Part shown: in pieces, positions 26,710 through 41,935 of the stretch | Layout: the number at the start of each line of letters is the position of its first letter | Position numbering within the stretch: position 1 is the stretch's first letter | IMG/VR virus record: IMGVR_UViG_3300048762_000248 | Coordinates: 54,568-118,567 of that record | DNA from: a virus | Reading direction: 5' to 3' (one strand) | DNA: 64,000 nucleotides | Translations under genes and position numbers: made by a program | The notes under the pieces: generated by a model | Told to the model about the DNA's origin: nothing | The model's database searches: none | The model's input: the letters and a program-made list of their open reading frames with translations, nothing else

Positions 26710-26786
26710 GAGGTAGTAGATTAGTGGCTCAAATCCCCGGCCCTTCAAGCCGGAAATCATGGGTTCGAATCCCATCTACCTCACCA
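26710..26786 (+). tRNA. tRNA with anticodon UUC (Glu-type); anticodon loop CCUUCAA, so C33
   Basis: Acceptor GAGGTAG/CTACCTC. D-arm GATT-AGTGGCTCA-AATC. Anticodon stem CCGGC/GCCGG. T-arm ATGGG-TTCGAAT-CCCAT. Ends A-CCA. Confidence 0.6.
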
Positions 26787-26840
26787 AATTTTGTGGTTAG
26801 GAGTTAGGTTCTCAAAATTCATGTCCTACTAAATAGTAGT

Positions 26841-27560
26841 ATGGAACGAAAAAAGCGTAGTATTATTTGGATAACGCCGATTGAAGAGTTTAATATAATT
26901 GTTGCTACAAGTCAGACCCTAGCCGAGATATTACGGCGACTTGGAATTGCTGCTAAAGCCGGAAATTATAAAACTTTAAAAAGTCGGTTGAAAACAGAAA
27001 ATATAAATGTTGGTCACTTGGCAATTGGACGGTTAGATGCAAATAAAGGGAGGAAAATATCGAGAGATTTAATTCCATTATCAAATGTATTAATTGAGCA
27101 TTCATTATATTCTCGAAGTTTTTTGAAGAAGCGGTTATTAAGAGAAGGTGTTTTACAAAATGTATGTTCGGAGTGTGAACAGACACCAAAATGGAATAAT
27201 AAAATTTTAATTTTGGTACTGGATCATATAAATGGAATTTCGGATGACAACAGATTAGAAAATCTTCGTTTGTTATGCCCAAATTGTAATTCACAAACGC
27301 TAACGTTTTGTGGACGGCATAAACATCGTTCAAATAGATTGTCACGTAAACTATGTGTTAGGTGCGAAGGAGAACTTTCAAAAGGTACAGATGGAAGTTT
27401 ATGTTTAGATTGTTATAATATAAAACAACGGCGAGTAGAGCGCCCGTCAATGGATGTTTTGAAAAATGAAATTTCAAAATCATCTTTTGTTTCCGTTGGA
27501 CGAAAGTATGGAGTTTCTGATAACGCTATTAGAAAATGGTTGCGTAATACAGCGGTGTAG
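26841..27560 (+). CDS. HNH homing endonuclease with a C-terminal HTH, paralog of 35357..36143
   Basis: LVLDHINGISDDNRLENLRLLCPNCN, with a C-terminus SFVSVGRKYGVSDNAIRKWLRN. Confidence 0.8.
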   Translation: MERKKRSIIWITPIEEFNIIVATSQTLAEILRRLGIAAKAGNYKTLKSRLKTENINVGHLAIGRLDANKGRKISRDLIPLSNVLIEHSLYSRSFLKKRLLREGVLQNVCSECEQTPKWNNKILILVLDHINGISDDNRLENLRLLCPNCNSQTLTFCGRHKHRSNRLSRKLCVRCEGELSKGTDGSLCLDCYNIKQRRVERPSMDVLKNEISKSSFVSVGRKYGVSDNAIRKWLRNTAV

Positions 27561-27626
27561 CTCAATTGGTGGAGCAGGAGCCTTTGAAGCTCAAGGTTGT
27601 AGGTTCGAACCCTACCACCGCTGCCA
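27551..27626 (+). tRNA. tRNA-Gln (UUG)
   Basis: Acceptor AGCGGTG/CACCGCT. D-arm GCTC-AATTGGTG-GAGC. Anticodon loop CTTTGAA. T-arm GTAGG-TTCGAAC-CCTAC. Ends G-CCA. Confidence 0.7.
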
Positions 27627-27642
27627 TTTTTGAAAGGGATGT

Positions 27643-27861
27643 ATGAAGCTGATTTGTCAGTGTTGTGATTTTACAAAGGACTTTGTGGACGGTGAAGAAG
27701 CGTTCCAAGCTGGTTGGGATGCGCCGCCGCACTTTACAGGCTATGTGGCATGTGATCTCTGTCCTGGCTCGTTTGTGGTGTTGGGCATCACTAATCGTCA
27801 TGCAGCCGCTCATGAAAAATGGAAGACGGAAGGCCGTCCAAAGGAGTTTCAAATTCCATAA
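27643..27861 (+). CDS. Small Cys-rich protein
   Basis: 72-aa ORF between two tRNAs. Confidence 0.4.
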   Translation: MKLICQCCDFTKDFVDGEEAFQAGWDAPPHFTGYVACDLCPGSFVVLGITNRHAAAHEKWKTEGRPKEFQIP

Positions 27862-27865
27862 ATTT

Positions 27866-27939
27866 ACCGGGTTCGTTTAACGGTAGGACGGCGGTCTCTG
27901 ACATCGCTAATGAATGTTCAATCCATTCACCCGGTTCCA
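27866..27939 (+). tRNA. tRNA-Gln (CUG)
   Basis: Acceptor ACCGGGT/ACCCGGT. Anticodon stem GCGGT/ATCGC with loop CTCTGAC. T-arm GAATG-TTCAATC-CATTC. Ends T-CCA. Confidence 0.65.
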
Positions 27940-27977
27940 CCACTTTTGGTCCGAGCCAATTTATGGTATAATGAACT

Positions 27978-28241
27978 ATGAAACTTTTTTACTGGACGGA
28001 ATGCGAATACGATGCATGTAATCATTATGCGGCGTTTGCCGAAGACGTTGACGAAGCTAAGGCGCTTGTAATCGAGGGTATTCAAAAGTCGTGGGAATCA
28101 GTGAATGAAAATGACACTACTCATGCGGAGTGGATGAAAACACATACACAAAACGAGATCAACAGTTTTTTAAATGATCCAAAATGGTCGTTGACAGTAT
28201 ATGAAGTGAAGCATGGGTTTGTCTCTTTCGGTGAGTATTAA
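27978..28241 (+). CDS. Hypothetical protein
   Basis: 87-aa ORF. Confidence 0.4.
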   Translation: MKLFYWTECEYDACNHYAAFAEDVDEAKALVIEGIQKSWESVNENDTTHAEWMKTHTQNEINSFLNDPKWSLTVYEVKHGFVSFGEY

Positions 28242-39837: not shown

Positions 39838-39842
39838 GTTTT

Positions 39843-39933
39843 GGGAGCGTGGCAGAGTGGCTGATTGCATTCGACTGCTAATCGAATAAACCTCAAAAGG
39901 GTTTCAAAAGTTCGAATCTTTTCGTTCCCGCCA
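39843..39933 (+). tRNA. tRNA-Ser (GCU), class II
   Basis: Acceptor GGGAGCG/CGTTCCC. D GCAG-AGTGGCTGA-TTGC. Anticodon stem TTCGA/TCGAA with loop CTGCTAA. Long variable arm. T-arm AAAAG-TTCGAAT-CTTTT. Ends G-CCA. Confidence 0.7.
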
Positions 39934-39978
39934 AATAAGTTCAATTCGTGTGGAAACCGTCTTTGTGTAAATAATTGC

Positions 39979-40587
39979 ATGAAAGAAAAAATTATGCAAC
40001 TAAGATCACAAGGACGAAGTTATAAACAAATTGTTGATGAAATAGGATGTTCAAAAAGTTTGGTGAGTTATTATTGCAGTTTAAATGGGGCAACACGAAC
40101 AAGAAAAATTCAGGATCGGAGAAGAGAAGAAAATCCTGGATTACATGCGGTTGAACACTTTTTAAGAAAGAAAATAAAACCACATAGAATAAAACAATAC
40201 CCACCATCATTGAAGGATATTAGAGAAAAAGTTAGGGCTTTCCAAAGACGAAATGGTTCTAAACTTTTAAATAAATCAGCGGCGACGTTTACATATTATC
40301 AAATGTTAGACACCTATAAAGACAATCAGATATGTTATTTGACTGGTAGACAAATTGATTTAATGAATACCAATACATATTCATTGGATCATATCAGACC
40401 GGCAACTAGAGGCGGTACTAATTTATTTGATAATATGGGTATTGCTTGTCCGCAAGCTAATTGGGGAAAGTCAGATATGACGGTAGAAGAATTTGTTCAG
40501 TTGTGTTCTGAAGTTGTGGAACATTTTGGTGGGAGATTTGAAAAACGACCTTGTGTGCCAATGTGTTATAGGTTAGAGAAAACATAA
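39979..40587 (+). CDS. HNH endonuclease, paralog of complement(48139..48744)
   Basis: MKEKIMQLRSQGRSYKQIVDEIGCSKSLVSYYCS...SLDHIRPATRGGTNLFDNMGIACPQANWGKSD. Listed ORF 39865 is trimmed to the first ATG after the tRNA. Confidence 0.7.
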   Translation: MKEKIMQLRSQGRSYKQIVDEIGCSKSLVSYYCSLNGATRTRKIQDRRREENPGLHAVEHFLRKKIKPHRIKQYPPSLKDIREKVRAFQRRNGSKLLNKSAATFTYYQMLDTYKDNQICYLTGRQIDLMNTNTYSLDHIRPATRGGTNLFDNMGIACPQANWGKSDMTVEEFVQLCSEVVEHFGGRFEKRPCVPMCYRLEKT

Positions 40588-41426
40588 TGTTTACAACTAG
40601 AATTTTTAAGACCCGTTATGGGCAGATGCATTTGATTGATGATGAGCCATGGATATCTCGTTCTCTCCGTGAACAAGGAGAATGGAGCGAGAGTGAAATG
40701 GATGTGATGAGAACCACATTTGAGATTTTGAAACCGCTTTATCCAGATGGTGTTGAAGTTGTTGATGCTGGCGCTTATATTGGCGACCTGACGATTCCGC
40801 TTGCTCAGTTGGAATGCGTGAAAAAGGTTTATGCTTTTGAGCCGCAACCGGAAATACGAGATATTTTGGAAAAGAATTTGGCTCTCAACAGTATTACAAA
40901 TGTTGAAGTAATGCCGTATGCATTGGGTCATATGAACGGGCCGATTAGTTTCACACCTAATGACGCACTACACAGTCCTGGCAGTACACAGATGCGTTCG
41001 GACGATAGTGGCGAAATAAAGGCTGAGATGCGAACACTTGATAGTTTCAATCTCAATCCTCAGTTTATCAAAGCCGATGTTGAAGGCATGGAAGTGTTTT
41101 TGTTGAATGGAGCACAGGAAACATTGAAGAGATCTGGCCCGATTGTGTTTTATGAACGGGATACAATGCCAATTCCTAATATTATGGTTCCAGGTGAAGG
41201 AGAAGGACTTCAACAGCAATTCAAAATGGAATGGGATGATTTATTTCGGTCATTGGGTTATTTTATATATCATAAATTAACATGCCCAATTTTCAATCCA
41301 AAAAATTTCAACAAGGCTCCGAATACATTTGGGAATTACGCAAGTCTGATGGGATTGGCGGTTCCGTTGTTTGGTCCGAATGGCAAGATCATGTTGGAAG
41401 AAATTCGGAAGTCATTGTTATGTTAG
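40587..41426 (+). CDS. FkbM-family SAM-dependent methyltransferase
   Basis: VVDAGAYIGDLTIPLA...VYAFEPQP, typical of the Methyltransf_21/FkbM family. Confidence 0.7.
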   Translation: MFTTRIFKTRYGQMHLIDDEPWISRSLREQGEWSESEMDVMRTTFEILKPLYPDGVEVVDAGAYIGDLTIPLAQLECVKKVYAFEPQPEIRDILEKNLALNSITNVEVMPYALGHMNGPISFTPNDALHSPGSTQMRSDDSGEIKAEMRTLDSFNLNPQFIKADVEGMEVFLLNGAQETLKRSGPIVFYERDTMPIPNIMVPGEGEGLQQQFKMEWDDLFRSLGYFIYHKLTCPIFNPKNFNKAPNTFGNYASLMGLAVPLFGPNGKIMLEEIRKSLLC

Positions 41427-41620
41427 AAAAGTATCGCTTCTTTGAAGCTCGATTAAAAGCAATTCGCATGAGTCCAGCAGCGAAAGAATTGGTTGAAGTT
41501 TACGGTCTGGATTTTACACCAGAAGAAGATTTCATTTTAGATCAAATGGATGCTGCTTGGCAACTATTGACAGACGAAGAACAAAAGATGTTGCGAGATG
41601 AAGATCCACAATGTTGGTAA
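41420..41620 (+). CDS. Small hypothetical protein (MLEKYRFFEARL...)
   Basis: Frame of ORF 41282..41620, trimmed to the ATG that overlaps the methyltransferase stop (ATGTTAG). Confidence 0.35.
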   Translation: MLEKYRFFEARLKAIRMSPAAKELVEVYGLDFTPEEDFILDQMDAAWQLLTDEEQKMLRDEDPQCW

Positions 41621-41624
41621 ATAT

Positions 41625-41721
41625 GGTGAGGTGGCAGAGTCCGGTTTATTGCACTCGCTTGGAAAGCGAACAGCGGCAGCTAAACTGTCGTTCAAGGGTC
41701 CGAATCCCTTTCTCACCTCCA
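41625..41721 (+). tRNA. tRNA-Ser (GGA), class II
   Basis: Acceptor GGTGAGG/TCTCACC. D GCAG-AGTCCGGTTTA-TTGC. Anticodon loop TTGGAAA. Long variable arm CAGCGGCAGCTAAACTGTCGTT. T-arm AAGGG-TCCGAAT-CCCTT. Ends T-CCA. Confidence 0.65.
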
Positions 41722-41737
41722 AATTTTAAAGGAAAAC

Positions 41738-41935
41738 ATGACAGAATTTGAACGGCGGTATCCGGGCGTAGCAATGAAAGCCAAATGCCCGAAATGTGGT
41801 AAAGGCGGAAAATCCATACGATCTCGTGAGACTGATCGTGGCACGAATTACTGTTGTGGTAAGTGTGGTGAAAGCTGGTATGAAACGCAAGTATCTTTTG
41901 GTAATGCCCCAGATTTAAAACTGCGACACGTATAA
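41738..41935 (+). CDS. Small zinc-ribbon protein
   Basis: 65 aa with CPKCGKGG...CCGKCG. The ATG lies 16 nt after the tRNA CCA. Confidence 0.4.
   Translation: MTEFERRYPGVAMKAKCPKCGKGGKSIRSRETDRGTNYCCGKCGESWYETQVSFGNAPDLKLRHV

What the first reader, a model, noticed from the sequence alone, without database searches (positions are those of the whole stretch)
26786..41740. Protein-coding genes start 5-18 nt after tRNA CCA ends within a shared AAATTTT context
At least eight tRNAs are followed by CCA-AA(A)TTT(T) and then an ATG within about 20 nt: 28637 to 28644, 36267 to 36273, 36777 to 36803, 37408 to 37411, 38055 to 38062, 41721 to 41738, 34494 to 34513 and 35315 to 35357. The same A/T tract follows the tRNA-like elements. 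This suggests polycistronic tRNA-mRNA precursors, where RNase P/Z processing of the tRNA creates the 5' end of a near-leaderless mRNA (tRNA punctuation). The AAATTT tract would be a conserved processing or ribosome-loading signal.
Basis: seen in the sequence. Interest (0 to 1): 0.5.

Follow-up and report, generated by a model that had tools for sequence, protein, structure and literature searches.

The report
Phage genes abutting tRNA 3' ends
In this T4-like phage and its relatives, many small genes begin only 4-18 bases after a tRNA, probably because tRNAs and genes share one long transcript cut apart by host tRNA-processing enzymes; this is a tighter version of what phages T4 and T5 already do.

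Summary
The window is a distant T4-like phage carrying 23 tRNA genes that all encode CCA. Ten are followed within 18 nt by an ATG opening an ORF of at least 30 aa.

Window plus seven related metagenomic loci (70 tRNAs) give a bimodal spacing:
- 3-9 nt, with no Shine-Dalgarno (SD) sequence;
- 12-19 nt, with an SD.

The ORFs look real: codon usage fits the called frame, and orthologues sit after the same tRNAs.

The A-N-T-T-T tract belongs to the tRNA, not the gene. It also follows tRNAs that have no nearby ORF, and T4 and T5 tRNAs. It fits the RNase E consensus RN|WUU 0-4 nt after CCA in 15/23 tRNAs (background about 14%).

Shared tRNA-mRNA transcripts are likely and have precedent in T4 segB. 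The cutter would be RNase E-like, not RNase P or Z.

The new element is the SD-less 4-6 nt class, which processing would leave nearly leaderless. That step is inferred, not shown. Verdict: a new variant of a known arrangement, of moderate interest.

The parts
21961..22034 (+). tRNA-Thr(TGT), ends in CCA
22035..22138 (+). Class I junction: spacer AAATT, then a 32-aa ORF from 22040. Orthologue in L001/L003 has spacer AATTTT-ATG.
22932..23005 (+). tRNA-His(GTG)
23006..23683 (+). Class II junction: 17-nt spacer ACATTTTAGGAGTTTAT, then a release-factor-like gene that needs a +1 shift at AGGGGT CTT TGA C (about 23122-23128)
26710..26786 (+). tRNA-Glu(TTC). Trailer AATTTT with no adjacent small ORF.
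26841..27560 (+). HNH endonuclease gene. CTAAATA lies 5 nt before the ATG. Its 3' end overlaps tRNA-Gln by 10 nt.
27551..27626 (+). tRNA-Gln(TTG)
27627..27861 (+). Class II junction: TTTTTGAAAGGGATGT, then a 72-aa ORF from 27643. Orthologues in L008 and L002; in L002 an HNH gene is inserted between tRNA and ORF.
28563..28637 (+). tRNA-Glu(CTC)
28638..29015 (+). Class I junction: AAATTT, then a 123-aa ORF from 28644. Same start codon in L010 (6 nt) and in L008 (15 nt, with an extra AGGAAAAAG).
29098..29181 (+). tRNA-like element ending ACCA, followed by ATTTGAAG. Probably the counterpart of the L008 tRNA-Met 11564-11640.
29750..29829 (+). tRNA-Met(CAT)
29830..30001 (+). Class I junction: ATTT, then a 55-aa ORF from 29834. 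L008 has ACATC-ATG with the N-terminal VDKVM.PFD conserved.
   Evidence: coding score marginal
30431..30501 (+). tRNA-like cloverleaf ending ACCA, followed by ATTTTCC
34416..34494 (+). tRNA-Pro(CGG)
34495..34848 (+). Class II junction: AATTTTTGAAGAGGCGTT, then a 111-aa ORF from 34513. Conserved in L008.
35228..35315 (+). tRNA-Ser(TGA). Trailer ACTCCC, no A/T tract.
35316..36143 (+). Hairpin 35315-35357 holding TATAAATA and the ATG, then an HNH gene from 35349
36181..36267 (+). tRNA-Leu(GAG)
36268..36668 (+). Class I junction: TAAAT, then a 131-aa GNAT acetyltransferase from 36273
36668..36777 (+). tRNA-like element with a long extra arm, ending ACCA, followed by ATTTT
36778..37138 (+). Start-codon hairpin (dG -21.9 kcal/mol, z -5.5), then a 111-aa HNH gene from 36803
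37321..37408 (+). tRNA-Leu(TAG)
37409..37729 (+). Class I junction: AGTT, then a 41-aa ORF (37413-37538) overlapping by ATGA a 64-aa ORF (37535-37729). The second ORF's stop shares one base with the next tRNA.
37729..37814 (+). tRNA-Leu(CAA)
37815..37978 (+). Spacer AAT-ATGAAATAA-AT containing a two-codon mini-ORF, then a 49-aa ORF from 37829. No SD. Its 3' end overlaps the next tRNA by 10 nt.
37969..38055 (+). tRNA-Leu(TAA)
38056..38238 (+). Class I junction: AATTTT, then a 58-aa ORF from 38062
39843..39933 (+). tRNA-Ser(GCT)
39979..40587 (+). HNH gene. TGTAAATA lies 5 nt before the ATG, and the start codon is predicted paired.
41625..41721 (+). tRNA-Ser(GGA)
41722..41935 (+). Class II junction: AATTTTAAAGGAAAAC, then a 65-aa ORF from 41738
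41945..42496 (+). HNH gene. TATAAATA lies 6 nt before the ATG.
42475..42566 (-). tRNA-Ser(CGA) on the minus strand. Its trailer is also AATTTT.

Best explanation
The region is a T4/T5-type phage tRNA cluster packed unusually tightly with small genes.

Shown:
- 23 CCA-encoding tRNAs are interleaved with conserved small ORFs and five HNH homing-endonuclease genes.
- The spacing from CCA to ATG falls into two classes: 3-9 nt without an SD, and 12-19 nt with an SD.
- A position-specific A-N-U-U-U trailer follows CCA whether or not an ORF is near.
- A U-rich tract precedes the tRNA 5' ends.

Inferred mechanism:
1. Long transcripts from a few sigma-70-like promoters run through tRNAs and ORFs.
2. 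Host RNase P cuts at each tRNA 5' end. Where an ORF overlaps the tRNA, this cut would remove its stop codon.
3. An RNase E-type endonuclease cuts in the A/U trailer 1-3 nt after CCA, and exonucleases trim back to CCA.
4. The downstream fragment is the mRNA. In the 12-19 nt class it keeps an ordinary SD leader.
5. In the 4-6 nt class it keeps only about 1-5 nt of unstructured A/U. It would then be translated in a leaderless-like, SD-independent way.

The HNH genes are different. Their start codons are locked in hairpins in read-through RNA. Most also have a late-promoter-like motif about 5 nt before the ATG.
For: ORFs are real and the arrangement is conserved:
- The called frame has the best codon-usage score for all 17 post-tRNA ORFs, though 29834-30001 only ties with one reverse frame at 0.02 per codon.
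- Orthologous tRNA-ORF pairs occur in L001, L002, L008, L010, L011, L012 and L014.
- The spacing across 70 tRNAs is bimodal.
- 18/25 ATGs at +3 to +9 open an ORF of at least 30 aa in this clade. The figure is 29% for the same motif across IMG/VR and 35% for control ATGs.
- Glu-CTC to ORF: the same start codon is used with a 6-nt spacer (window, L010) or a 15-nt spacer that contains AGGAAAAAG (L008).

The motif belongs to the tRNA:
- The trailer pattern is present in all three spacing classes and in T4 and T5.
- RN|WUU lies 0-4 nt after CCA in 15/23 window tRNAs (P = 2e-8) and in 33/48 tRNAs of relatives (P = 1e-22).
- It is also enriched at -7 to -1 upstream of the tRNAs.

Processing and co-transcription:
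- RNase E consensus: PMC5222698. Cleavage 1-3 nt after CCA: PMC2190699.
- Co-transcription precedent, and stop-codon removal by tRNA maturation in T4 segB: PMC2330249.
- In T5, ORFs start 13-25 nt after tRNAs with an SD.

Translation signals:
- Class I starts are unstructured, dG -0.6 to -1.6 kcal/mol.
- Four of five HNH starts are paired, dG about -10 to -29.
- TATAAAT[AG] lies 5-8 nt before an ATG for 7 of 18 motifs here, against 13-32 nt in a T4 control stretch.
Against: - There are no RNA data of any kind, and the host is unknown, so the presence of RNase E is assumed.
- 8/23 trailers lack a strict RN|WUU. These include two class I junctions (36267 TAAAT, 37408 AGTT).
- From general knowledge, E. 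coli translates mRNAs with a few extra 5' nucleotides less well than true leaderless ones, and 5'-monophosphate ends favour decay.
- PMC2330249 interprets tRNA-linked processing as lowering, not enabling, expression of embedded genes.
- The relatives are not statistically independent of each other.
- Some ORF starts are ambiguous (29834 has a marginal coding score; 36273 versus 36279).
Confidence: 0.5

Rival explanations
1. Class I ORFs are translated directly on the unprocessed precursor. Initiation would be SD-independent, on an unstructured A/U-rich start region. The upstream tRNA would be irrelevant, or would merely keep the start region free of long-range pairing.
For: Start regions are almost unstructured and A/U-rich. 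Many other genes in the window also lack a recognisable SD. Orthologues switch freely between spacers with and without an SD.
Against: A stably folded tRNA would lie 4-6 nt before the AUG, inside the stretch a 30S subunit normally occupies (general knowledge). tRNA precursors are usually processed quickly.
Confidence: 0.22
2. The tight junctions are only genome compaction, and processing damps or abolishes expression of the downstream ORFs. This is what has been proposed for T4 segB and the T5 homing endonucleases. Under this reading the class I ORFs are weakly expressed passengers.
For: The median gene-to-gene spacer is 8 nt in relatives. PMC2330249 proposes down-regulation by tRNA-linked processing. 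ORF 3' ends overlap tRNA 5' ends at 27551-27560, 37729 and 37969-37978.
Against: Class I ORFs are conserved at the protein level across relatives. They have a coding-type codon bias. They lack the start-occluding hairpins used on the HNH genes. ATGs at +3 to +9 open ORFs far more often than elsewhere.
Confidence: 0.18
3. One reading: the AAATTT tract is a conserved ribosome-loading or start-context signal for the downstream ORFs.
For: The tract lies directly before the ATG at 28644, 38062 and 22040. From general knowledge, A/U-rich leaders can enhance initiation.
Against: The tract is anchored to CCA, not to the ATG. It is equally present when the ATG is 12-19 nt away or absent. It follows the minus-strand tRNA-Ser and T4 and T5 tRNAs. 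Gene starts away from tRNAs do not show it. L008 uses ACATC-ATG after tRNA-Met.
Confidence: 0.07
4. The flanking motifs are leftovers of tandem tRNA duplication, that is shared ancestry of the flanks, and have no function.
For: Isoacceptors are clustered (Glu/Gln, Pro-Pro, five Leu, four Ser, Gly-Gly). One diverging tRNA-Glu paralogue is seen in L002.
Against: Only about 5 nt next to CCA are conserved while the rest of each spacer differs. The same motif occurs in unrelated T4 and T5 clusters, and more than 120 viral contigs match a tRNA-CCA-AWTTT pattern.
Confidence: 0.03

Closest known systems
Phage T4 tRNA gene cluster with embedded segB (Broida & Abelson 1985; Brok-Volchanskaya et al. 2008, PMC2330249)
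   Same: A T4-like phage with co-oriented tRNAs and a homing-endonuclease ORF inside the cluster. The mRNA is made as part of the tRNA precursor. tRNA maturation cuts at the end of the ORF. A hairpin occludes the endonuclease start. tRNAs have CCA-AAUUU trailers.
   Different: T4 has 8 tRNAs and one embedded ORF, 41 nt after tRNA-Ile, with an SD. Several T4 tRNAs lack an encoded CCA. Here there are 23 tRNAs, all with CCA, about a dozen interleaved small ORFs, and a class that starts 4-6 nt after CCA without an SD.
Phage T5 tRNA region (NC_005859 annotation)
   Same: A long co-oriented array of tRNAs, small ORFs, HNH endonuclease genes (hegA-E) and tRNA-like stable RNAs. ORFs begin shortly after tRNAs, and trailers read CCA-AAUU.
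   Different: In T5 the shortest tRNA-to-ORF spacer is about 13 nt and the spacers carry SD sequences. Many internal promoters are annotated. T5 is an unrelated siphovirus.
RNase E-initiated tRNA 3' maturation in enterobacteria (PMC2190699; consensus RN|WUU, PMC5222698)
   Same: A single-stranded A/U-rich site 1-3 nt after an encoded CCA. The motif here fits RN|WUU at that position in 15/23 tRNAs.
   Different: Host and enzyme are unknown and cleavage has not been observed. In E. coli the downstream fragment is usually a spacer or another tRNA, not an ORF starting a few nucleotides away.
Mitochondrial tRNA punctuation (e.g. PMC8601606 abstract)
   Same: tRNAs lie directly between coding regions of a polycistronic precursor, so tRNA excision would define the mRNA ends and leave mRNAs with almost no leader.
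   Different: Mitochondria use RNase P plus RNase Z on tRNAs without an encoded CCA, and their ribosomes are specialised for leaderless mRNAs. Here CCA is encoded, an RNase E-type cut is more likely, half the junctions keep SD leaders, and nothing has been shown experimentally. A search of the paper library found no paper applying this term to phages.
Leaderless bacterial mRNAs
   Same: No SD and an unstructured start. The phage also seems to place TATAAATA about 5 nt before many ATGs, which predicts truly leaderless late mRNAs.
   Different: The class I products would keep 1-5 nt of leader and a processed 5'-monophosphate end, not a 5'-terminal AUG on a primary transcript.

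Membership tests
T4/T5-type phage tRNA cluster with embedded ORFs and homing endonucleases | Co-oriented array of phage tRNA genes | tested here: met
   22 of 23 tRNAs lie on the + strand between 21845 and 48854.
T4/T5-type phage tRNA cluster with embedded ORFs and homing endonucleases | Free-standing homing-endonuclease genes inside the array | tested here: met
   Five ORFs hit PHROG HNH endonuclease families with E between 1e-16 and 1e-44. Presence or absence varies at the same junctions in relatives (L001, L002). 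Pfam HNH hits fall below the curated cut-off.
T4/T5-type phage tRNA cluster with embedded ORFs and homing endonucleases | Endonuclease start codon hidden in a hairpin, with a late promoter in or next to it | tested here: met
   Predicted hairpins: 35312-35365 (z -3.9), 36774-36825 (z -5.5), L001 (z -6.8), L011 (z -4.6). A TATAAATA-like motif lies 5-6 nt before four of the five HNH ATGs. This is prediction only.
T4/T5-type phage tRNA cluster with embedded ORFs and homing endonucleases | ORF mRNAs and tRNAs made as one precursor | not testable with these tools
   Inferred from spacer length and from promoter and terminator counts at chance. Shown only for T4 (PMC2330249).
RNase E-type tRNA 3'-trailer site | RN|WUU in a single-stranded A/U-rich stretch 1-3 nt after an encoded CCA | tested here: met
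   15/23 in the window (P = 2e-8) and 33/48 in relatives. The trailer is unpaired in 18/22 folds.
RNase E-type tRNA 3'-trailer site | Cleavage at that site that depends on RNase E | not testable with these tools
   There are no RNA data and the host is unknown.
tRNA punctuation (mitochondrial type) | tRNAs directly abut coding regions on both sides | tested here: met
   3' side: 4-18 nt for 10 tRNAs. 5' side: from 11 nt before to 10 nt of overlap for 8 upstream ORFs.
tRNA punctuation (mitochondrial type) | mRNA ends made by RNase P and RNase Z | tested here: inconclusive
   All 23 tRNAs encode CCA. From general knowledge this disfavours RNase Z, and the motif points to RNase E instead. No cleavage was observed.
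tRNA punctuation (mitochondrial type) | The processed, nearly leaderless mRNAs are translated | not testable with these tools
   Only indirect support: conserved ORFs, coding bias and open start regions.
Leaderless mRNA | AUG at the very 5' end of the transcript | tested here: not met
   For class I junctions a cut 1-3 nt after CCA would leave 1-5 nt before the AUG. By contrast, genes with TATAAATA 5 nt upstream are predicted to start at or next to the A of the ATG; this has not been verified.

The most novel reading that the evidence does not exclude
In this clade of T4-like phages, host tRNA 3' processing would be the step that creates translatable, nearly leaderless mRNAs for a set of small early genes. 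That would be a bacterial-virus counterpart of mitochondrial tRNA punctuation. It would sit in a phage that also makes truly leaderless late mRNAs from TATAAATA motifs placed 5 nt before the ATG. Expression of these genes would then be tied to tRNA maturation and would not need an SD sequence.
Probability: 0.3. Interest if true: 0.65.

Novelty: new variant of a known kind. Interest (0 to 1): 0.45.

Why it matters
- If the 4-6 nt junctions work as proposed, tRNA excision would set the 5' ends of translatable mRNAs in a bacterial system. Phage gene expression would then be linked to host RNase E and RNase P activity.
- It would show that an SD leader and a near-leaderless start are interchangeable over short evolutionary distances. 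The same start codon is used with or without a 9-nt segment that carries the SD.
- It has a practical side for annotation. Gene callers moved or missed several of these starts in relatives.
- It also gives a clean, clonable test cassette: tRNA, trailer and ATG.
- If processing only lowers expression, the region is an ordinary, very compact T5-like tRNA cluster.

Tried and rejected
- Near-identical DNA in the phage collection: none found.
- Protein-based searches of IMG/VR with the GNAT, the ligase and the release-factor-like gene: no relatives.
- Exact-protein look-up of the window's GNAT: not on record. One relative's contig has no DNA held; there the GNAT follows another ORF rather than a tRNA.
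- Leader-trailer pairing that would extend the acceptor stem into a processing stalk: predicted in only 4/22 tRNAs, so rejected.
- Independent sigma-70 promoters for post-tRNA ORFs: counts are at chance (48 against 39.9 +/- 6.2). The few exact TTGACA sites (21478, 22384, 29004, 30720, 33708, 34026) lie ahead of sub-clusters, not at the junctions.
- Terminators: at chance.
- Rfam at permissive thresholds gives no tRNA score for the tRNA-like elements at 29098, 30431 and 36668. They remain 'tRNA-like' only.
- ARAGORN with intron search and low thresholds gave mostly spurious calls.
- Caulobacter phage Cr30 as a further comparison: no tRNAs in its first 50 kb, so dropped.
Only 29% of those ATGs open an ORF of at least 30 aa, no better than control ATGs (35%). 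The tight junction is therefore not general among phages.
- Literature searches found no report of tRNA punctuation or of leaderless late mRNAs in T4-like phages. The library is incomplete.

Full report
**What the window is.** The large ORFs identify a distant T4-like myovirus.
- They include a gp5 baseplate hub-lysozyme, a gp6 wedge protein, an ATP-dependent DNA ligase and an RNA ligase with a LAGLIDADG insertion.
- The best gp6 matches are about 39% identical, to Pelagibacter, Methylophilales and Caulobacter phages.
- No phage record is similar at the DNA level.
- Identical proteins are on record on a 118.6-kb JGI metagenome contig.

**tRNA content.** ARAGORN finds 20 tRNAs. Rfam and relaxed ARAGORN add Asp (21845-21922), His (22932-23005) and Glu-CTC (28563-28637).
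- All 23 encode the 3' CCA, and 22 lie on the + strand.
- Isoacceptors are grouped: Glu/Gln, Pro-Pro, five Leu, four Ser, Gly-Gly.
- Three more elements have a 7-bp acceptor stem plus ACCA and a cloverleaf-like fold: 29098-29181, 30431-30501 and 36668-36777.
- These three get no Rfam tRNA score even at E <= 10.

**Checking the observation.**
- The ATG after 37408 is at 37413, not 37411.
- The gene after 35315 starts at 35349 (33 nt away), and its trailer ACTCCC is not an A/T tract.
- Ten tRNAs are therefore followed within 18 nt by an ATG opening an ORF of at least 30 aa.
- The base pattern after CCA is strongly position-specific. Position +1 is A in 18/23. Positions +3 to +5 are T in 15/23 each and never G.
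- Proximity alone is unremarkable. Called genes in relatives are separated by a median of 8 nt, and half overlap or touch.

**Are the ORFs genes?**
- The called frame scores highest for all 17 post-tRNA ORFs in a codon-usage log-odds model trained on the long ORFs. 29834-30001 is marginal: 0.02 per codon, tied with one reverse frame.
- 36273-36668 is a GNAT acetyltransferase (Pfam E = 3e-5) with a 70%-identical homologue.
- 28644-29015 has six homologues at 58-70% identity.

- They keep the same tRNA order and the same tRNA-ORF pairs.
- Thr to ORF reads AAATT-ATG in the window and AATTTT-ATG in L001/L003, with a conserved K.YT..DAVG.
- Met to ORF reads ATTT-ATG in the window and ACATC-ATG in L008, with a conserved VDKVM.PFD.
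- The Gln-TTG and Pro-CGG junctions keep their SD-containing spacers.

**Two spacing classes.** Over 70 CCA-ending tRNAs, the distance to the first ATG-ORF of at least 30 aa has two modes.
- One mode lies at 3-9 nt (19 cases) and one at 12-19 nt (17 cases).
- The longer spacers are purine-rich at +6 to +12 (GAAAGGG, GAAGAGG, AAAGGA, TAGGAG), that is, SD-like.
- The short spacers cannot hold an SD.
- Orthologues switch class. After tRNA-Glu(CTC) the same ATGGAAGAA start is used with CCA-AA[A/T]TTT-ATG in the window and L010.
- L008 uses the same start with CCA-AATTT-AGGAAAAAG-T-ATG, a clean 9-nt indel that carries the SD.
- In this clade 18 of 25 ATGs at +3 to +9 open an ORF of at least 30 aa.
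Only 29% of those ATGs open such an ORF, against 35% for control ATGs.
- The tight SD-less junction is therefore a feature of this clade, not of phages in general.

**What the A/T tract is.** It is anchored to the tRNA.
- The +1 A, +3-5 T pattern is present in all three groups (somewhat weaker when no ORF is near): ATG within 9 nt, ATG at 10-25 nt (where the tract lies upstream of the SD), and no ORF within 25 nt (32 tRNAs).
- It follows the minus-strand tRNA-Ser(CGA) and the three tRNA-like elements.
- T5 tRNAs have CCA-A in 21/22 cases, mostly CCA-AAUU, and several T4 tRNAs have an AAUUU or AUUU trailer after CCA.
- Gene starts away from tRNAs do not show it.
- The tract fits the RNase E core motif RN|WUU (PMC5222698), placed so that the cut falls 0-4 nt after CCA.
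- That fit holds in 15/23 window tRNAs against a background of 14-16% (P = 2e-8), and in 33/48 tRNAs of relatives (P = 1e-22).
- In E. coli the standard model has RNase E cutting 1-3 nt downstream of an encoded CCA (PMC2190699 abstract).
- The tRNA 5' flanks (AAGTTT, AAATTT, AGTTTT ending at -1) are enriched for the same consensus: 11/22, P = 7e-7.
- They also supply the U(-1) described as optimal for bacterial RNase P (PMC10731613).
- A leader-trailer helix is not supported; it is predicted in only 4/22 tRNAs.

**Co-transcription.** This is inferred, not shown.
- Spacers of 4-18 nt leave no room for a promoter.
- Sigma-70-like sites are at chance (48 against 39.9 +/- 6.2). The few with an exact TTGACA sit ahead of tRNA sub-clusters: 21478, 29004 (11/12 matches) and 34026.
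- Terminator-like sites are at chance.
- There is direct precedent. T4 segB mRNA is part of the roughly 1.75-kb primary transcript that is also the precursor of the eight T4 tRNAs.
- In T4, maturation of tRNA-Arg cuts between the last sense codon and the stop codon of segB (PMC2330249; layout).
- The same geometry occurs here. ORF 26841-27560 overlaps tRNA-Gln by 10 nt, ORF 37829-37978 overlaps tRNA-Leu by 10 nt, and the stop of 37535-37729 shares a base with tRNA-Leu.
- T5 has the closest overall layout: tRNAs, small ORFs, hegA-E HNH genes and tRNA-like stable RNAs, all in one orientation. Its ORFs start 13-25 nt after tRNAs behind SD sequences.

**The HNH genes behave differently.**
- Five ORFs in the array are HNH endonucleases (PHROG E from 1e-16 to 1e-44; Pfam hits are below the cut-off).
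- They come and go at tRNA junctions. In L002 one lies between tRNA-Gln and the 72-aa ORF. In L001 one lies between tRNA-Asp and tRNA-Thr.
- Four of the five have the start codon paired, and relatives show the same: 35312-35365 (dG -18.4 kcal/mol, z -3.9), 36774-36825 (dG -21.9, z -5.5), L001 (dG -26.5) and L011 (dG -17.9).
- Four of the five have a T4-late-promoter-like motif (TATAAATA, TGTAAATA or CTAAATA) 5-6 nt before the ATG.
- This is the device described for T4 I-TevI-type genes: silent in read-through RNA, active from a late promoter in or next to the hairpin (PMC2330249).
- It is indirect evidence that read-through from the upstream tRNA occurs.
- Class I starts are, by contrast, almost structure-free (dG -0.6 to -1.6 over about 38 nt).

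**Proposed mechanism.** Long transcripts run through the array.
1. RNase P and an RNase E-type cut in the A-N-U-U-U trailer release the tRNAs.
2. The fragment beginning 1-3 nt after CCA is the mRNA.
3. In class II it has a normal SD leader, as in T5.
4. In class I it has 1-5 nt of A/U before the AUG and would need SD-independent, leaderless-like initiation.

Supporting this, the phage seems to tolerate leaderless starts in general. Seven of 18 exact TATAAAT[AG] motifs lie 5-8 nt before an ATG-ORF (four at exactly 5 nt), where T4 spacing would put the transcription start at or next to the A of the ATG. A 10-kb T4 control stretch gives 13-32 nt.

Weak points:
- There are no RNA data.
- The host is unknown.
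- Two class I trailers (TAAAT, AGTT) lack a strict RN|WUU.
- By general knowledge, short residual leaders and 5'-monophosphates are unfavourable in E. coli.
- The published reading for T4 and T5 is that such processing lowers expression.

I put about 0.5 on the overall model. Co-transcription and a tRNA-linked processing motif rate about 0.8. Translation of processed near-leaderless class I mRNAs rates about 0.35-0.4.

**Verdict.**
- Right: shared precursors are likely, and near-leaderless products are plausible for one class.
- Wrong: the enzymes, the role of the A/T tract, and two of the eight genes.

The arrangement is a tighter variant of the known T4/T5 tRNA-cluster organisation. Its one new element is a conserved, clade-specific class of SD-less starts 4-6 nt after CCA.

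Noticed in passing
window 9446-10024(-), 10856, 17417(-), 19283, 26841, 33167, 35349, 39979, 41945, 45369, 56590-57951(-): A T4-late-promoter-like motif (TATAAAT[AG], TGTAAATA or CTAAATA) lies 4-8 nt, most often exactly 5, before the ATG of many genes. With T4 spacing the transcript would start at or next to the A of the ATG, giving leaderless late mRNAs. This applies to 7 of 18 exact motifs in the window. A 10-kb T4 control stretch gives 13-32 nt.
   Followed up: partly
window 23023-23683: A release-factor-like gene lies 17 nt after tRNA-His and is split over two frames at AGGGGT CTT TGA C, the classic prfB-type +1 frameshift cassette. The fused 219-aa product aligns without a gap to RF1 residues 89-306 (2fvo_A, E = 6e-39). 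It has GGQ and an RF1-type PPT motif but lacks domain 1. It is absent at this position in L001/L003, and no IMG/VR relatives were found. A sequencing indel is not excluded.
   Followed up: partly
window 35312-35365, 36774-36825; L001 1372-1440; L011 2915-2965: Strong hairpins (z from -3.9 to -6.8) bury the start codons of HNH homing-endonuclease genes placed right after tRNAs. In three of the four the late-promoter-like motif sits in the loop. This matches the T4 I-TevI type of control.
   Followed up: yes
window 29098-29181, 30431-30501, 36668-36777 (also 35067-35215, 30187-30262): tRNA-like elements with an acceptor stem plus ACCA and cloverleaf-like folds that score nothing with the Rfam tRNA model. 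One has a GAAA tetraloop where the anticodon loop should be. One is 110 nt long, with a long extra arm and the loop CCUUACA. T5 annotates comparable 'tRNA-like stable RNAs'.
   Followed up: partly
window 27551-27560, 37729, 37969-37978: The 3' ends of three ORFs overlap the 5' end of the next tRNA by 1-10 nt. RNase P cleavage would remove their stop codons and give non-stop mRNAs, as reported for T4 segB and tRNA-Arg.
   Followed up: partly
window 42475-42566 (-) against L011 12335-12427, L012 5466-5556, L014 1945-2035: tRNA-Ser(CGA) is the only minus-strand tRNA. It overlaps the 3' end of the HNH gene 41945-42496 by 22 nt. In relatives the same tRNA is on the + strand, which suggests a local inversion next to an endonuclease insertion.
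   Followed up: no
L002 1967-2040: A paralogue of tRNA-Glu(TTC) has its anticodon changed to TTT (Lys), an altered acceptor stem and no CCA. It is followed 11 nt later by an SD-led ORF.
   Followed up: no
window 42745-45267: An 840-aa protein has a major-vault-protein shoulder domain (Pfam E = 5e-21) and a vault repeat. It is conserved in relatives (L011, L012 and the no-DNA contig; fragment in L014). This is an unusual domain for a phage.
   Followed up: no
window 4958-7336 (-): A 792-aa ORF combines an RNA-ligase/tail-fibre-attachment family match at its C-terminal end with a LAGLIDADG endonuclease domain at residues about 220-370. It may be an intein or a fused homing endonuclease.
   Followed up: no
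window 37815-37831: After tRNA-Leu(CAA) the spacer reads AAT-ATG-AAA-TAA-AT-ATG. A two-codon mini-ORF starts 3 nt after CCA and stops 2 nt before the 49-aa ORF's ATG. This may be a reinitiation arrangement.
   Followed up: no
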